Positions 4,940 to 23,437 of a stretch of DNA of 24,903 bases are shown here, piece after piece (the first letter of the stretch is position 1; each line of letters starts with the position of its first letter). Below the pieces are notes generated by a model that was not told the DNA's origin, searched no databases, and was given only the letters and a program-made list of their open reading frames with translations. The translations under genes and the position numbers were made by a program. The DNA lies in contig JAGGZP010000021.1 in the NCBI GenBank assembly GCA_021161965.1, forward strand, positions 1 through 24,903, read 5' to 3'. Source of the DNA: a bacterium (GTDB lineage: Bacteria > Patescibacteriota > Patescibacteriia > UBA2591 > JAGGZP01).

Positions 4940-5605
4940 ATGCACCAATTAAATGCACAAGTAAGAAAAATAATCGGAAAAAAAGTGAAAAGATTACGTC
5001 GACAAAGTTTAATTCCGGCGGTTATATACGGACACAAAATAAAACCATTATCTTTAGTGGTTTCACTAAAAGATTTTGAAAAGGTATATAAACAGGCTGG
5101 TGAGAGTGATTTAATTGAGTTAAAAATTGATAATCAAAGACCAGTTAACGTTCTTATTCACGATGTACAACGTCACCCCGTGACTGACAGGATCATTCAT
5201 GTTGATTTTTATCAAATTAAAGCTGGCGAAAAAATAACCGTAGACATTAAACTAAAATTAGTTGGAGAGGCTCCAGCTGTGAAAGAGAAAGGGAATATTC
5301 TTGTCCCACAAATTGAAGAAATAAAGGTTGAATGTTTACCTAAAGATATTGTTCATGATATTGCGGTTGATATCTCGAATCTTAAAGAAGTTGGTGATAC
5401 AATCCGTATTAAAGATTTAAAAATTCCGCCAACATTGAAAATTTTAAATAAACCGGAAGATGTTGTTGTCACTGTTGAAGCGCCGATAAAGGAAGAAATT
5501 ACTAAACCGGTTGAGGAAGAGATTATAGAAAAACCAATGGAAACTAAAGAAAAAGAAGAAGAAAAAGAAGAAAAGGTAAAAAGTGAAAAAATAGAAGAAA
5601 AATAA
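4940..5605 (+). CDS. rplY: 50S ribosomal protein L25 (CTC type)
   Basis: LRRQSLIPAVIYG, VQRHPVTDRIIHVDFY, CLPKDI, acidic C-terminal tail. Confidence 0.95.
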   Translation: MHQLNAQVRKIIGKKVKRLRRQSLIPAVIYGHKIKPLSLVVSLKDFEKVYKQAGESDLIELKIDNQRPVNVLIHDVQRHPVTDRIIHVDFYQIKAGEKITVDIKLKLVGEAPAVKEKGNILVPQIEEIKVECLPKDIVHDIAVDISNLKEVGDTIRIKDLKIPPTLKILNKPEDVVVTVEAPIKEEITKPVEEEIIEKPMETKEKEEEKEEKVKSEKIEEK

Positions 5606-5619
5606 TTGTTGCTAAATTT

Positions 5620-6636
5620 ATGAAAAATAGCAGAAAAAGATATTTGTTATTAAAATTTGTATTCTTTATTTTATTTTTTCTTTTAGTAATTGGTGTCGCT
5701 TGTCTAAATAAAGATACTTCTTTGCAAAGTCACGAAAATAAGTTGATAGAAAATACAGGAAAGAAAGAGAATATAAGACCCCTTGACGGTCTTTATTATT
5801 TTGGAAAATATAAATTTTTGCCAATAGGTGTGATGTATGATAATTTAGATAAAGCGCGACCGCAAGCGGGACTTAGTTTTGCTTCGATAGTTTATGAGGC
5901 ACCAGTTGAGGCAGGAATTACTCGTTTTTTAGCAATTTTTGATACGGTAAGTTTACCGGAAAAAATAGGACCGATTCGTTCAGCTCGTCCTTATTTTGCC
6001 GAAATAGCTGAAGAATACAAGGGAATTTATGTTCATGCCGGTGGTTCACCGGAAGTATTACGCAAAATTAAAATGGGTTATTATGATTTTTATAATGTCG
6101 ATGATTTTAGTGCTCAGGGAATATATTTTTGGCGAGATTACTCAAAAAAGGCACCACATAATCTTTATCTAAATGTTAAAAAATTTTTGAATTCTTCTTG
6201 GGGAAATTTATCAGTAAAAGATTTTGATGCTTGGAAATTTGAAGATAGTAGTCAAAATAGAGGTAAGGTTAATAAAATAGAAATCAGTTACAGCGAACCT
6301 GTTGAATGGAAATATGATAATTTTAAAAATCAATATTTTAGATACCAAAATAATAAAAAATTCATTGACGAAAATGGCGAACAAATAAGTACAGAGAATG
6401 TAGTTATTCAAATTACTGATATCTCAATAATTGATGATGAGGGAAGAAGAAAAATAAGAATGAAAGGTGAGGGTAGGGCAGTGATTTTCAAAAATGGTAA
6501 GAAAATTTATGGTTTCTGGAAAAAATTAAAAAATGGTCGTACTCACTTTTTTGATAATGAAGGAAAAGAAGTAAAGTTTAATCGTGGAAGGACCTGGATT
6601 GAAATTGTTTCTAAAAATATTAGTGTTAAATATTAA
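5620..6636 (+). CDS. DUF3048-domain (YerB-like) exported protein
   Basis: N-terminal hydrophobic segment; ARPQAGLS, YEAPVEAGITRFLA, GPIRSARPY, HAGGS, APHNLY motifs. Confidence 0.88.
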   Translation: MKNSRKRYLLLKFVFFILFFLLVIGVACLNKDTSLQSHENKLIENTGKKENIRPLDGLYYFGKYKFLPIGVMYDNLDKARPQAGLSFASIVYEAPVEAGITRFLAIFDTVSLPEKIGPIRSARPYFAEIAEEYKGIYVHAGGSPEVLRKIKMGYYDFYNVDDFSAQGIYFWRDYSKKAPHNLYLNVKKFLNSSWGNLSVKDFDAWKFEDSSQNRGKVNKIEISYSEPVEWKYDNFKNQYFRYQNNKKFIDENGEQISTENVVIQITDISIIDDEGRRKIRMKGEGRAVIFKNGKKIYGFWKKLKNGRTHFFDNEGKEVKFNRGRTWIEIVSKNISVKY

Positions 6637-7413: not shown

Positions 7414-8001
7414 TTTTGATTCTTAGTGGGGCAATTTAGAAAGCTACAGGGCATATGGTGGATGCCTTGGCACCAAGGGCCGATGAAGGACGTAGCAGCC
7501 TGCGATAAGCCTCGGGGAGGTGGCAAGCAACCTTTGATCCGAGGATTTCCGAATGGGGAAACCCAATGCAGATTAAACTGCATTATCCATCTCATTGACC
7601 GAGATGGAGGGGCACCTGGGGAATTGAAACATCTTAGTACCCAGAGGAAAAGAAAACAAAAGTGATTCCCTAAGTAGTGGCGAGCGAAAAGGGAAGAGCC
7701 TAAATCTTATAAGACCTAAGTCCTTGAACTGAGTTTGCTTTGTGCAAGCTCAATCTCGGATGAAAGGGTGTAGGCCCAAAATGTCTTATAAGAGGTTGTG
7801 GGATAAGTAATGTTCTGCTTCCTACAAAGCAGAGTAAATAAGGGTTCCTTAGAAGAAAGACCTGGAATTGGTCTACCAAAGAAGGTGAAAGTCCTGTATT
7901 CGAAAGGGAGCTTCTTGTTTATAATTACTTAATCCCGAGTAGTGCAAAACTCGTGGAATTTTGCATGAATCAAGGTGGACTATCACCTAAGGCTAAATAC
8001 C

Positions 8002-8047
<46 letters not shown>

Positions 8048-8105
8048 TAGCCCGGTGAGGGCGGTGAAATAGTACCTGAAACCATATGCCAACAAAGAGT
8101 CGGAG

Positions 8106-8315
8106 TCCCGCACCTTTCAGACATGTATTTGACAAAATATTCAGCACTCCTAATAAGACAATTATTTTGAATAATAATGAAGTTTTTTGCTTACTTACAA
8201 AAAGTCGTCAAATACCAAGATATTTGATAATAATCCTAATTGTTTTGACTAGTTCTTTGCGAAAATAAAAAGTTCTGTAAAAACTGGCGACTTTTTATGT
8301 CTGAAAGGTGCGGGA
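8106..8315 (+). other. 210-nt intervening sequence (IVS) in 23S helix 25, apparently non-coding
   Basis: AT-rich insert between conserved GTCGGAG and TGACGGCG, closed by a perfect 19-bp stem (8106-8124 tcccgcacctttcagacat / 8297-8315 atgtctgaaaggtgcggga). Confidence 0.92.
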
Positions 8316-8815
8316 TGACGGCGTTCCTATTGAAGAATGAACCAGCGAGTTACTCTCGGTAGCAAGGTTAACCCTTTAATTGGGGGAGCCGTAGGGAAAC
8401 CGAGTCTGAAAAGGGCGATAAGTTGCCGGGAGTAGACCCGAAGCCGGGTGAGCTACCCATGACCAGGGTGAATCCCGTAGAAATACGGGAGGAGGCCCGA
8501 ACCCGTTGGCCGTGCAACACCATGGGATGAGTTGTGGGTAGGGGCGAAAAACCAATCGAACTCGGCGATAGCTGGTTCTCCCCGAAATAGCTGTAGGGCT
8601 AGCCCTGTTGGCCAGCTTTCGACGGTAGAGCACTGAATGGATTAAGGTGGGTTTTCCTACTTAATCCAACCAAACTCCGAATGTCGAAAGTTTTTGCAAC
8701 AGGAGTCAGACGATGGGGGCTAAGCTCCGTCAGTCAAAAGGGAAACAGCCCAGACCCTCGTCTAAGGTCCCTAAATTCGAGCTAAGTGTGAAAGGTGGTG
8801 AAACGACTTGGACAA

Positions 8816-8846
<31 letters not shown>

Positions 8847-9692
8847 TAAAGAAAGCGTAACAGCTCACTGGTCAAGTTGTTTTGCGCCGAAAATATATCG
8901 GGGCTTAAGCTCGATACCGAAGACAGGGGCTTGATTAGTTTACTAATCGAGCGGTAGGGGAGCATTCTTCACGCGGTGAAGTTCTTGCGTGAGCAAGGGT
9001 GGAGCGTGGAGAAGAGAGAATGCTGGTATAAGTAGCAAAAAGTTCGGTGAGAATCCGAACCACCGTAAGCCCAAGGTTTCCTGGGCACTGATGATCATCC
9101 CAGGGTTAGGCGGTCCTAAGCCGAAGCCGAAAGGCATAGGTGATGGATAGCTGGTTAATATTCCAGCCCTAAAATTGATTCCTTAATCGATGGAGTGACA
9201 CTTCTTTTAATCCCGAGCGCGATTTGGCTATTCGCGTCCAAGAGGAAATTTCTTCCATTGGTAAATCCGTGGAATCAAAGAAATTTTCTCAAGTGAAATC
9301 CTCGCAAGGGGAGATTCGGGAGATAAAGGAGTCAAGAAAAACTTCTAGAGTCCGCTCTTTCAGCGGGGGAATCAATTTTATCCGTACCGCAAACCGACAC
9401 AGGTGGGCGGGCAGAGTATGCTCAGGTGGACGAGTGAGCCCTCGTTTAGGAACTCGGCAAAAAAGCGTCCGTAACTTCGGAATAAGGACTGTCTTGGCCG
9501 AGAGGTCAAGGCCGCAGCGAAAGTTTGCCAAGCGACTGTTTAACAAAAACATAGGTCCCTGCACAAAGCGTAAGCTGATGTATAGGGGCTGACGCCTGGC
9601 CAGTGTCAGAACGTTAAGGGGATCCGTCAAATCTTACTTTAAGTGAGATGTAGCGGTGAACCTAAGCGCTGACGAACGCCGGCGGTAACTAT

Positions 9693-10442
9693 AATCTAGA
9701 CGGTTGTAGTTACCTAAAAAAATCTGGCTGTATGCGGGGAAGTCTGGTTTAAAGCTGTTACTACTTTCTCGTTATTATTGCGGGAAGTAACAATGTAGCA
9801 GCCACAGATTATCCGCAGGAAACCCGATGTGAATTAGTATAAGAGGTTAATATGGATTCAGAAAAATGGCTTAAAAAAATACCCAATCATATTGGTTGGT
9901 ATATTGCTGGCTTTGTTGATGGAGAAGGAAGTTTTAATGTTTCTGTTAAAAAGCGAGACGATTTTACTTCTGGCTATGGTTTAGATCCATCTTTCAATGT
10001 ATCCCAAAAAGATAGAGTAATTTTGTCTTTGATAAAGCGGTATCTAGGTTGTGGAAGAATACGTCAAAGAAAAGATGGTTTGTTGATGTATGAGGTAAGA
10101 AATATTAACGCTCTATATGAGAAAGTACTTCCTTTCTTCAAAAAATTTCATTTTCTTTCAGCGTCAAAAAAGAAGAATTTTTCCGTATTTTCACGTATTA
10201 TTAAGATGATATACCAAAAGAAGCATTTAACCAACGAAGGATTATGGAAAATCCTTGCATTAAGAAAAGAATTAAATAAAAGTCGTGGGAGAAAGAGAAA
10301 ATATACTCTTAAAAATATTAAATTAAAAATTAACTAATTCAGTCGGGGATCCTCAGAGACTATACGCCAGACACATTTCGTTAATTTAAACGAAATGTGA
10401 AGATATAGTCCGATCTCACAAGTGATTGTGAGTTAACATATG
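9693..10442 (+). mobile_element. Group I intron (750 nt) after 23S U1917 (E. coli numbering), helix 69
   Basis: Joined exons give GGCGGTAACTAT|AACCGTCCTAAGG. P1 ggtaactat/gtagttacc has the U9692-G9706 wobble; P10 gacggtt (9699-9705) pairs with the 3' exon; P3 9723-9728/10366-10371; P4 9733-9737/9813-9817; P7 GACTA 10358-10362/TAGTC 10406-10410; terminal G10442. Confidence 0.97.
9852..10337 (+). CDS. Intron-encoded single-motif LAGLIDADG homing endonuclease (I-CreI/I-CeuI-like architecture)
   Basis: YIAGFVDGEGSF motif and VSQKD; 161 aa with no stops; looped out of a P6 extension (gaattagt 9831-9838 / actaattc 10333-10340). Confidence 0.96.
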   Translation: MDSEKWLKKIPNHIGWYIAGFVDGEGSFNVSVKKRDDFTSGYGLDPSFNVSQKDRVILSLIKRYLGCGRIRQRKDGLLMYEVRNINALYEKVLPFFKKFHFLSASKKKNFSVFSRIIKMIYQKKHLTNEGLWKILALRKELNKSRGRKRKYTLKNIKLKIN

Positions 10443-11256
10443 AACCGTCCTAAGGTAGCGTAATCCCTTGCCGGGTAAGTTCCGGCCTGCACGAATGGCG
10501 TAACGACTTGGCAACTGTCTCAACGAGGGGCTCGGCGAAATTGCAATAAGCGTGAAGATGCGCTTTACCCACGGCTAGACGAAAAGACCCCGTGAAGCTT
10601 TACTGCAGCTTGACATTGGATTAAGGTTGAGTCTGTTAAGCGTAGGTGGGAGTCTCGATTTTTCGAGACGCCAATGAGACACCACCCTGATTCAATTTTA
10701 ATTCTAACTCCTGCTAGTCACAGGGGGACAGTGTCTGGTGGGCAGTTTATCTGGGGCGGATGCCTCCTAAAAGGTAACGGAGGCGTTTAAAGGTTGGCTT
10801 AGTTCCGATGGAAACGGAACTGAAAGTGCAAGGGCATAAGCCAGCCTGACTGCGAGACCTACAAGTCGAGCAGAGGGGAAACCCGAACCTAGTGAACCGA
10901 TGCGTCCGTATAGGCGGCGCAAAGATCATCGGATAAAAGCTACTCCGGGGATAACAGGCTAGTCAGGCCCGAGAGTCCATATCGACGGCCTGGTTCGGCA
11001 CCTCGATGTCGGCTCAACGCATCCTGGGGGTGGAGAAGCTCCCAAGGGTTTGGCTGTTCGCCAATTAAAGCGTTACACGAGCTGGGTTCAGAACGTCGTA
11101 AGACAGTTCGGTCTCCTATCTGCCGTGGGCGTCGAATCCTGAGGAGGCCTTTCCCTAGTACGAGAGGACCGGGAAAGACGAACCTCTGGTGTATCAGTTG
11201 TCCTGCCAAGGGCATTGCTGAGTAGCCACGTTCGGTTTATATCCCTTTAAGGGATT

Positions 11257-11289
<33 letters not shown>

Positions 11290-11440
11290 GTCTCCAAGAT
11301 TAGGATTCAAAGACCACCGGGAGATTACCGGTTTGATAGGCTCTAGGTGTAAGCTCCGCAAGGAGTTAAGCCGAGGAGTACTAACGGTCATTGCTTTTCT
11401 AAATTGCCCCGCTAAGGGTCAAAATTGTAAAAAATTATCT

Positions 11441-11557
<117 letters not shown>

Positions 11558-21011: not shown

Positions 21012-21749
21012 ATGTTTCAAATTGATATTATTACAATTTTTCCAGATATTTTTAACTCCTATTTTAATACCTCAATTATAAAACGAGCACAAGACAAAAA
21101 GTTGATCAAGATAAAAATTATTAATTTACGCAATTTTACTCGAGATAAACACAAAACAGTTGACGACAAGCCATATGGGGGTGGGCCAGGAATGATACTC
21201 AGACCGGATGTTATTTATCGAGCAATTGTTTCTAGAAAAGCAAAAAGAAAAAATAAAAAGGGCAAAGTTATTTTGTTTACACCTACTGGCAAACAATTTA
21301 ACCAAAGGATTGCTAAAAAATATACAAAGTTAGATTATTTAATTTTAGTCTCCGGACATTATGAGGGGATTGATGCGAGGGTAAACAAATTTGTTGATGA
21401 AAAAATTTCAATTGGTCCTTACATTCTGACTGGCGGTGAATTACCAGCAATGATTGTTGTTGATGCTGTCACTCGATTGATTTCTGGAGTTATTAAACCT
21501 GAAAGTTTAGAAGAAGAAACTGAATTAAAAATTTGCCTACCTACCGGCAGGCAGGAAAATTCTAAATTAAAAATTATTGCGGAATATCCACAATACACCC
21601 GCCCTGAAGTGTTGACAATCAGAGATAAATATGGTAAAAAAATAGTGTTACGAGTACCAAAAATTCTTTTAAGTGGGAATCATAAAAAAATAAAAGAGTG
21701 GAGACAAAAACATAGAAAACAGTTGACAAAAAAATTTGATATTTTATAA
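21012..21749 (+). CDS. trmD: tRNA (guanine-37-N1)-methyltransferase TrmD
   Basis: VDDKPYGGGPGM, GHYEGIDARV, ISIGPYILTGGELPAM, EYPQYTRPE, VPKILLSGNH. Confidence 0.98.
   Translation: MFQIDIITIFPDIFNSYFNTSIIKRAQDKKLIKIKIINLRNFTRDKHKTVDDKPYGGGPGMILRPDVIYRAIVSRKAKRKNKKGKVILFTPTGKQFNQRIAKKYTKLDYLILVSGHYEGIDARVNKFVDEKISIGPYILTGGELPAMIVVDAVTRLISGVIKPESLEEETELKICLPTGRQENSKLKIIAEYPQYTRPEVLTIRDKYGKKIVLRVPKILLSGNHKKIKEWRQKHRKQLTKKFDIL
21520..21575. repeat. 20-bp imperfect palindrome inside a 7-bp repeat array, in-frame within trmD
   Basis: ctgaatt aaaaatt tg [cctacctaccggcaggcagg 21536-21555] aaaatt ctaaatt aaaaatt; translated as ELKICLPTGRQENSKLKI. Confidence 0.8.

Positions 21750-21773: not shown

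Positions 21774-23437
<1,664 letters not shown>

What the first reader, a model, noticed from the sequence alone, without database searches (positions are those of the whole stretch)
8106..8315. Helix-25 IVS has an internal 17-mer exactly complementary to its two loop ends joined
Seen: inside the 19-bp closing stem, the loop starts with gtatttgac (8125-8133) and ends with gacttttt (8289-8296), both flush with the stem. The central aaaaagtcgtcaaatac (8199-8215) is the exact reverse complement of those two pieces joined (gtatttgac+gacttttt). It could splint 8133 to 8289, in the same order as a group I P10/P1 guide, yet there is no group I core, U-G pair or terminal G. The right pairing extends to 12 bp (8199-8210/8285-8296), overlapping the left one, and competes with a local hairpin (8267-8274/8289-8296). 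The two halves also look like a degenerate tandem duplication (tatttga..cctaat..ttttga..agtt.tttgc..aaaaagt). Established: helix-25 IVSs such as those in Salmonella are cut out by RNase III without religation. Inference: a bistable RNA switch, a guide for excision or circularisation, or the footprint of an unrecognised insertion mechanism.
Basis: partly seen in the sequence, partly recalled or inferred. Interest (0 to 1): 0.72.

Follow-up and report, generated by a model that had tools for sequence, protein, structure and literature searches.

The report
Strain-variable branched helix-25 insert in 23S rRNA
A 210-base AT-rich insert at the tip of helix 25 of the 23S rRNA of a tiny hydrothermal-vent bacterium does carry the reported 17-base self-complementarity, but it looks like an ordinary dispensable rRNA intervening sequence with two competing folds, not a splicing guide.

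Summary
There is a perfect 19-bp closing stem (8106-8124/8297-8315), and 8199-8215 is the exact reverse complement of the two loop ends joined. In 5000 dinucleotide shuffles the best such match was 11, against 17 observed.

The two pairings cross each other. Both loop ends are flush with a -35.6 kcal/mol stem, so a full 17-bp coaxial splint cannot coexist with the closed stem. They are alternative nested folds (-68.2 and -66.8 kcal/mol), and each extends the closing helix.

The host is a 31% GC, 572-kb Patescibacteria genome with a complete RNase III gene.

A metagenome contig (L060) from a strain about 99.6% identical has a 27-nt hairpin in place of the whole 210-nt helix. The stem base carries two compensated changes there. 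There is no junction at 8133|8289 and no target duplication. The insert is therefore dispensable and strain-variable, as classical IVSs are.

No homologue of the loop was found in 55 order-level genomes, 401 class-level genomes or the pattern scans, so covariation cannot be tested. No RNA data exist. Rfam finds no ribozyme in the insert but does find the true group I intron in the same gene.

Best reading: a new member of the helix-25 IVS kind, branched, with a bistable-looking top. A guide function is unsupported but not excluded.

The parts
7435..11405 (+). Host gene: 23S rRNA, 3971 nt against a 2925-position model
   Evidence: Rfam RF02541, 2489.5 bits
8106..8124 (+). 5' arm of the 19-bp perfect closing stem of the helix-25 insert. 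The first 7-8 nt correspond to the native helix-25 stem base.
   Evidence: Stem base compared with G006, G031, UBA4787 and L060.
8125..8133 (+). Left loop end (A), flush with the stem. Pairs with 8207-8215 in fold A. In the MFE fold its first 3 nt pair with 8196-8198.
8128..8195 (+). Arm 1 of the predicted three-way junction (MFE fold B)
8199..8215 (+). Central 17-mer. 8199-8206(-8210) pairs with the right loop end and 8207-8215 with the left loop end. It is the hub of the two competing helices.
   Evidence: Unique in the genome at up to 2 mismatches.
8211..8284 (+). Interior of arm 2 (MFE fold B), with local hairpins. Holds the degenerate second copy of the colinear motifs.
8285..8296 (+). 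Right loop end (B; 8289-8296 as reported, 8285-8296 with the extension), flush with the stem. Pairs with 8199-8210 in fold B, with ensemble probability about 0.9.
8297..8315 (+). 3' arm of the closing stem

Best explanation
This is a lineage-specific, strain-variable intervening sequence (expansion) that replaces the tip of helix 25 of the 23S rRNA in a small AT-rich Patescibacteria genome. It is transcribed within the pre-23S rRNA. The RNA forms the perfect 19-bp closing helix, topped by a branched AT-rich region. The central 17-mer is the hub of that top. Either its 5' half pairs with the right loop end (fold B, a perfect three-way junction, the predicted majority), or its 3' half pairs with the left loop end (fold A, a 28-bp continuous extension of the stem). 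Each fold lengthens the closing helix to 22-31 bp of coaxial duplex, which keeps the insert compact and gives a double-stranded substrate of the size RNase III needs. By analogy with classical helix-9/25/45 IVSs, the insert is most likely cut out in the stem by the organism's RNase III without religation, or otherwise tolerated as a surface expansion. The two pairings are alternatives, not a simultaneous splint. No excision at 8133/8289, ligation or circularisation takes place. The double complementarity probably arose from a degenerate internal duplication whose two copies can pair with the same partners. Shown: the anatomy, the non-randomness, the competing folds, dispensability, strain variability and the presence of RNase III. 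Inferred: processing by RNase III, the lack of a guide function and the duplication origin.
For: Position and kind: the insert sits where relatives have an 11-30-nt hairpin between conserved 23S flanks. Seven of 26 relatives' loci carry non-homologous helix-25 inserts of 101-201 nt, so this site is a recurrent IVS site in the order. Literature: helices 9, 25 and 45 are the usual IVS sites, the terminal loop is replaced by an extended stem-loop, distribution is sporadic, and RNase III cleaves in the stem (PMC4990558). In CPR bacteria, 77% of 23S genes carry insertions of at least 100 nt (PMC9297842). Dispensable and strain-variable: contig L060 is 99.4% identical over 20 kb (99.6% outside one hot spot). 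It has only 7 single-base differences in the 23S outside helix 25, yet carries a 27-nt hairpin in place of 8106-8315. Competing folds: fold B is -68.2 and fold A is -66.8 kcal/mol, with pair probabilities of about 0.9 and 0.08, and B stays 1.4-2.8 kcal/mol ahead of A at each of the five temperatures tested from 25 to 70 C. The two helices cross, so nested folds exclude each other. Opening the stem costs 35.6 kcal/mol against 9.0 or 5.7-13.7 gained. RNase III: the gene is complete, with catalytic and dsRNA-binding domains. No catalytic RNA: Rfam gives nothing better than E=1.7 in 8090-8330, while the same tool finds a group I intron at 10290-10432 in this gene. Not mobile within the genome: no second copy exists, and the 17-mer is unique at up to 2 mismatches. 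Composition: the loop is 26% GC and the genome 31%. Duplication: colinear repeats and alignment p = 0.002-0.13.
Against: An exact, gap-free 9+8 complementarity with both partners flush to the stem is more orderly than a merely compact fold requires, and it far exceeds shuffles. None of the other IVSs examined shows it. In both cases the first copy of the putative duplication pairs better than the second, which hints at selection for the long-range pairings. Support for the duplication is statistically modest. No RNA evidence exists for cleavage, retention or anything else. No homologue exists to show whether the pairings are conserved. The steric argument against a simultaneous splint is reasoning, not a model: a strained side-by-side pseudoknot, or a transient co-transcriptional splint before the 3' stem arm is made, is not excluded.
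Confidence: 0.6

Rival explanations
1. Functional bistable or co-transcriptional folding switch. Helix A (8125-8133/8207-8215) forms first during transcription. Helix B displaces it once the 3' end is made. The switch times RNase III cleavage or a step of 50S assembly.
For: Two structurally distinct folds lie within 1.4 kcal/mol. Both pairings are perfect Watson-Crick and abut without a gap. The 5'-proximal partners are transcribed before the 3' ones. The first-copy ends pair better than the second-copy ends.
Against: The near-identical strain lives without the insert, so no essential timing role is needed. AT-rich RNAs commonly have many near-degenerate folds; the MFE has a frequency of 0.0008 in the ensemble. 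There is no conservation data.
Confidence: 0.12
2. Footprint of DNA-level templated synthesis. The insert was built by fold-back or template-switch copying, or by internal duplication, within the hairpin. The 17-mer complementarity is a neutral scar of that event with no RNA-level role.
For: All three helices (19, 9 and 9 bp) are perfect Watson-Crick without G.U, as expected of DNA palindromes. The halves share colinear degenerate repeats. The relatives' inserts are long palindromes of short repeat arrays, which suggests hairpin-templated growth at this site.
Against: The sequences next to the 17-mer do not resemble the stem arms, as a nested inverted copy of the hairpin would predict (inspection). 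The filled/empty comparison shows whole-helix replacement rather than an insertion into the short allele's loop. The extension of helix B uses a G.U pair, which works only in RNA.
Confidence: 0.15
3. Internal guide (splint) that aligns 8133 and 8289 for excision of 8134-8288 with religation or circularisation. This would be analogous in order to group I P1/P10, with protein enzymes doing the chemistry (an endonuclease plus RtcB).
For: The exact 17-nt complementarity is in the right order. The genome retains an RtcB ligase gene, which contains an intein and is cut by a contig end.
Against: The full coaxial splint is incompatible with the closed 19-bp stem unless several base pairs melt (geometry by reasoning). 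There is no ribozyme core. 8133-8207 is a C-G pair rather than U.G, and 8288 is C rather than G. No splicing endonuclease (PF01974) was found. RNase III ends are not RtcB substrates (established enzymology). RtcB is present in 24 of 55 genomes of the order and does not track helix-25 inserts: 5 of the 7 relatives with inserts lack it. No 8133->8289 joint was seen in contigs of four DNA runs. The strain without the insert has a different hairpin, not the predicted spliced product.
Confidence: 0.04

Closest known systems
Classical 23S rRNA intervening sequences at helix 25 / helix 45 (Salmonella, Helicobacter, Proteus, Leptospira, Coxiella), excised by RNase III without religation
   Same: Same site (the tip of helix 25). 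The terminal loop is replaced by an extended stem-loop. There is a long perfect closing stem. Composition is AT-rich relative to rRNA. Presence is sporadic even between near-identical strains. RNase III is encoded by the host.
   Different: No sequence similarity to any other IVS was found. The top is branched, with a 17-mer complementary to both loop ends, rather than a simple long hairpin. Processing is not demonstrated. The host is a Patescibacteria genome with a single rRNA set.
Heptamer-array (repeat-armed) IVS hairpins, with or without an S23p four-helix-bundle ORF
   Same: Several relatives in the same order carry this type at the same helix (arrays such as AGAAATT in L024 and L029). 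The sister strain has one in 16S helix 6.
   Different: The window's insert has no tandem or heptamer arrays and no credible ORF.
Group I intron internal guide sequence (P1/P10)
   Same: A single internal strand is complementary to the two flanking ends in the order that would align them for joining.
   Different: There is no catalytic core, no U.G at the would-be 5' site and no terminal G. The guide lies 65 nt from the site. A genuine group I intron with a LAGLIDADG gene exists elsewhere in the same 23S and is readily detected.
rRNA expansion segments built by helix-into-helix accretion (three-way-junction insertion fingerprints)
   Same: The MFE fold is a perfect three-way junction, in which arm 1 (8125-8198) looks inserted into a longer trunk hairpin like that of UBA4787 or G031.
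   Different: Those expansions are retained and conserved within lineages. This one differs between strains of one species.

Membership tests
23S rRNA intervening sequence (IVS), helix 25 type | Lies at the tip of helix 25 (or 9/45), replacing the short terminal hairpin between conserved flanks | tested here: met
   Rfam LSU match. The flanks align to relatives whose helix 25 is 11-30 nt. Empty allele in L060.
23S rRNA intervening sequence (IVS), helix 25 type | Bordered by complementary sequences that form a long stable stem | tested here: met
   19/19 Watson-Crick, -35.6 kcal/mol. Whole-insert fold z = -7.8.
23S rRNA intervening sequence (IVS), helix 25 type | Sporadic distribution between strains and species; dispensable | tested here: met
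   Absent from a strain with 7 single-base differences in the rest of the 23S. Not found in 55 order-level or 401 class-level genomes.
23S rRNA intervening sequence (IVS), helix 25 type | Excised from the precursor by RNase III, leaving a fragmented 23S without religation | not testable with these tools
   No RNA run holds the insert. Only the enzyme's presence is shown.
Group I intron | Conserved catalytic core (P3-P9) detectable by covariance model | tested here: not met
   No RF00028 match in 8090-8330 at E<=10. Positive control: 49.2 bits at 10290-10432.
Group I intron | U.G pair at the 5' splice site and a terminal G at the 3' end | tested here: not met
   8133 is C paired to G8207, and 8288 is C.
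Repeat-armed (heptamer array) IVS cassette | Inverted arrays of short tandem repeats forming the arms | tested here: not met
   TRF finds no array at minimum score 30. The repeat finder shows only single colinear motif pairs.
Archaeal-type bulge-helix-bulge excision with RtcB ligation | Splicing endonuclease and RtcB both encoded | tested here: not met
   PF01974 was not found in a 90.5%-complete genome. An RtcB N-terminus with an intein is present. The BHB motif itself was not searched.

The most novel reading that the evidence does not exclude
The 17-mer is a working internal guide. During transcription it holds the two loop ends side by side before the 3' stem arm appears. This allows a protein-catalysed second processing step: removal or circularisation of 8134-8288, possibly sealed by the genome's RtcB. 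Alternatively it sets a folding timer for RNase III cleavage. Either would be a processing route not known for bacterial IVSs.
Probability: 0.05. Interest if true: 0.8.

Novelty: new member of a known kind. Interest (0 to 1): 0.3.

Why it matters
If the ordinary reading holds, the value is descriptive. It documents a helix-25 IVS in a Patescibacteria genome and shows that such inserts turn over between strains about 99.6% identical. Three rRNA insertion polymorphisms separate the two assemblies: the 23S helix-25 insert, a second 23S intron, and a 16S helix-6 insert. Each IVS swap replaces the whole helix rather than leaving a clean insertion scar. That bears on how rRNA inserts spread in CPR bacteria, and on the risk of mis-assembling or mis-binning their rRNA genes. 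Only if the guide or timer reading were true would it open a new processing mechanism.

Tried and rejected
Searches for homologues to test covariation:
- BLAST of the insert against 55 genomes of the order and 401 of the class gave only short AT-rich chance matches.
- Exact and degenerate stem patterns in genome contigs found only UBA4787, which has a non-homologous loop, and one chance hit in a coding gene.
- Two pattern scans of metagenome contigs found nothing.

Reaching more alleles through neighbouring genes:
- EndoQ-like protein homologues, cupin/epimerase homologues and the exact homing endonuclease were followed.
- This produced the decisive L060 contig. All other contigs either lack the rRNA synteny or stop short of helix 25.

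Sequencing runs:
- No RNA holder of the insert is listed.
- Reads were laid on four DNA runs kept as contigs. It showed no 8133->8289 joint, but contigs cannot exclude rare variants.

Ideas tested and dropped:
- The insert or its stem is a copy of a repeated genomic element, such as the mini-palindrome noted earlier at 21520-21575. Rejected: there is no second copy in the genome.
- X and Y (the loop sequences flanking the 17-mer) are relics of an inverted copy of the stem. Rejected: no convincing similarity by eye.
- An ORF in the insert. Rejected: only a 60-aa frame that starts in conserved rRNA.
- The similar apex of the two 'empty' hairpins (ACTTG-CTYG-CAAGT) is a repeated capping element. 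Rejected: it occurs once in the genome, and CUUG is the usual 16S helix-6 tetraloop.

Full report
**What is there.** The window carries a 23S rRNA gene at 7435-11405 (+), a 5S gene, and an unlinked 16S gene further downstream. The 23S gene is 3971 nt against a 2925-position model. The window is contig C29 of a 572-kb, 92-contig, 90.5%-complete genome with 31% GC. Its relatives include a record titled 'Patescibacteria group bacterium UBA4787'. No genome of the same family is held.

The reported feature lies between conserved 23S flanks, exactly where relatives have the short helix-25 hairpin.

**Checking the observation.** All coordinates are right.
- 8106-8124 and 8297-8315 form a perfect 19-bp stem.
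- 8199-8215 is the exact reverse complement of 8125-8133 joined to 8289-8296.
- The right pairing is 9 bp Watson-Crick, and 12 bp with one G.U.
- The competing local hairpins exist at 8265-8273/8290-8298 and 8208-8214/8221-8227.

In 5000 dinucleotide-preserving shuffles of the 172-nt loop, the best internal complement to the joined ends was 11 nt, against 17 observed. Seven non-homologous helix-25 inserts of relatives and one 16S insert, scanned far more permissively, gave 0-12, always in low-complexity repeats.

The 'degenerate tandem duplication' has only modest support. Colinear motif pairs sit at spacings of 95, 86, 78 and 68 nt. Alignment p-values range from 0.002 to 0.13 depending on the scoring scheme. 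TRF reports nothing.

The sequence is not an assembly artefact. A contig of an independent vent study (X2) matches 8139-8310 without a difference. A 296-nt contig of X1 spans the whole insert and both flanks.

**Topology and energetics.** The two pairings cross (8125 < 8199 < 8215 < 8296), so in nested structures they exclude one another.
- The unconstrained MFE (-68.2 kcal/mol, z = -7.8) uses the right pairing. It is a perfect three-way junction: the stem plus a 3-bp extension, arm 1 (8128-8195), and arm 2 closed by 8199-8210/8285-8296.
- Forcing the left pairing gives -66.8 kcal/mol, with a 28-bp continuous helix on the 5' strand.
- Ensemble probabilities are about 0.9 for the right pairing and 0.08 for the left. 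Fold B stays 1.4-2.8 kcal/mol ahead at each of the five temperatures tested from 25 to 70 C.

Forming both helices as one coaxial 17-bp splint would put 8125 and 8296 about 45 A apart. Both are covalently flush with the base pair 8124:8297. The stem is worth -35.6 kcal/mol, against -9.0 and -5.7 (or -13.7) for the two small helices. My inference is that the full splint cannot coexist with the closed stem. Only a strained side-by-side pseudoknot, or a transient form before the 3' stem arm is transcribed, remains possible.

**Context in relatives.** Of 26 helix-25 loci from the same order, most are 11-30 nt, and seven carry inserts of 101-201 nt.
- The seven inserts are long, essentially unbranched hairpins. 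Several are built of inverted short-repeat arrays. They fall into at least four unrelated sequence types.
- The window's extended stem resembles those of G031 (a 45-nt hairpin) and UBA4787.
- Its first 7 bp equal the whole helix-25 stem of G006, which is capped by a GTAT loop.
- That short form is also present in run X1 at higher depth, from another organism.

The loop itself has no homologue. Nothing matched in 55 order-level or 401 class-level genomes, in four pattern scans, or elsewhere in its own genome.

**The empty allele.** Following the neighbouring EndoQ-like gene led to a 31.7-kb JGI metagenome contig, L060.
- It is colinear with the window and differs at 119 positions in about 20 kb. 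Of these, 46 fall in one hot spot.
- Within the 23S there are only 7 single-base differences outside helix 25.
- Yet 8106-8315 is replaced by a 27-nt hairpin: 11 bp, one bulged A and a CUCG loop.
- The stem base differs by two compensated changes (T-A to C-G and G-C to T-A). No SNP lies within 350 nt upstream or 85 nt downstream.

So the insert is dispensable and strain-variable. The two alleles differ by replacement of the whole helix. There is no target-site duplication and no breakpoint at 8133|8289.

The same pair of strains also differs at two other rRNA sites.
- L060 has an 861-nt intron-like insertion at window position 10954.
- L060 has a 168-nt hairpin insert in 16S helix 6.

**Enzymes.**
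- The genome encodes a complete RNase III, with catalytic and dsRNA-binding domains.
- It also has the N-terminus of an RtcB ligase interrupted by an intein and cut by a contig end.
- RtcB occurs in 24 of 55 genomes of the order and does not follow helix-25 inserts.
- No splicing endonuclease was found.
- Rfam finds nothing meaningful in the insert at E<=10. It does detect the real group I intron of this gene (9695-10442; 49.2 bits), which carries a LAGLIDADG gene.

**Interpretation.** The site, closing stem, composition, sporadic presence and host RNase III all match the classical IVS description (PMC4990558), and such insertions are common in CPR 23S genes (PMC9297842).

I therefore read this as a new, sequence-orphan member of the helix-25 IVS kind. 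Its unusual point is a branched top, in which one 17-nt strand can extend the closing helix on either side. The guide and circularisation idea is disfavoured for several reasons:
- the geometry;
- the lack of a catalytic core or splice-site signatures;
- the lack of a matching enzyme set;
- the absence of a joined allele.

It cannot be excluded, however, because there are no RNA data and no homologues. The exactness and register of the complementarity remain somewhat more orderly than the ordinary reading requires. That residue is why a functional switch (0.12) and a DNA-templating scar (0.15) are kept as rivals.

Noticed in passing
window 9695-10442: A 748-nt group I intron sits in the 23S (RF00028 at 10290-10432: 49.2 bits, just under the cut-off of 50, E 2.6e-11). 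It carries a LAGLIDADG homing endonuclease gene at 9852-10337 (PF00961, E 2.3e-19). It lies within LSU model positions 1863-2061. The order relative G033 appears to carry an insertion at the same site; G031 does not.
   Followed up: partly
L060 8490-9350 (equivalent to window 10954): The 99.6%-identical strain has an extra 861-nt insertion in the 23S, between LSU model positions about 2472 and 2476. It gives a weak group I signal (25.9 bits, E 2.9e-4) and holds a 200-aa ORF at 8621-9223. The window lacks it, so intron content differs between strains.
   Followed up: partly
L060 20303-20470 versus window 21905-21931: In 16S helix 6 the sister strain has a 168-nt unbranched AT-rich hairpin insert with heptamer-like repeats. 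The window has a short hairpin with a CUUG loop. As at helix 25, the whole helix is replaced.
   Followed up: partly
window 21911-21924 and L060 5830-5843: The apices of the two 'empty' hairpins (16S helix 6 in the window, 23S helix 25 in L060) are nearly the same 14-mer (ACTTG-CTYG-CAAGT). It occurs only once in the genome. This is probably chance plus the common CUUG tetraloop.
   Followed up: partly
G000 contig C17 12503-13434 (L055 1354-2283): The RtcB RNA ligase gene is interrupted by an intein after about 50 profile positions and truncated by the contig end. RtcB is present in 24 of 55 genomes of this small-genome order.
   Followed up: partly
window 5500-6000: This is a SNP hot spot between the two strains: 46 of 119 differences, inside the DUF3048-family gene.
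   Followed up: no
L024, L029, L009, L020, L021 (helix 25 of relatives G013, G012, G036, G039, G030): The helix-25 inserts of other families in the order are 150-200-nt palindromes built from inverted arrays of 7-nt repeats (for example AGAAATT). Four of them share a homologous stem base containing CACTAAT. This matches the repeat-armed IVS hairpins noted elsewhere in this scan.
   Followed up: partly
window 21836-23359 relative to 7435-11557: The rRNA genes are unlinked and in the order 23S-5S ... 16S. About 10 kb of protein genes lie between them, on the same strand.
   Followed up: no
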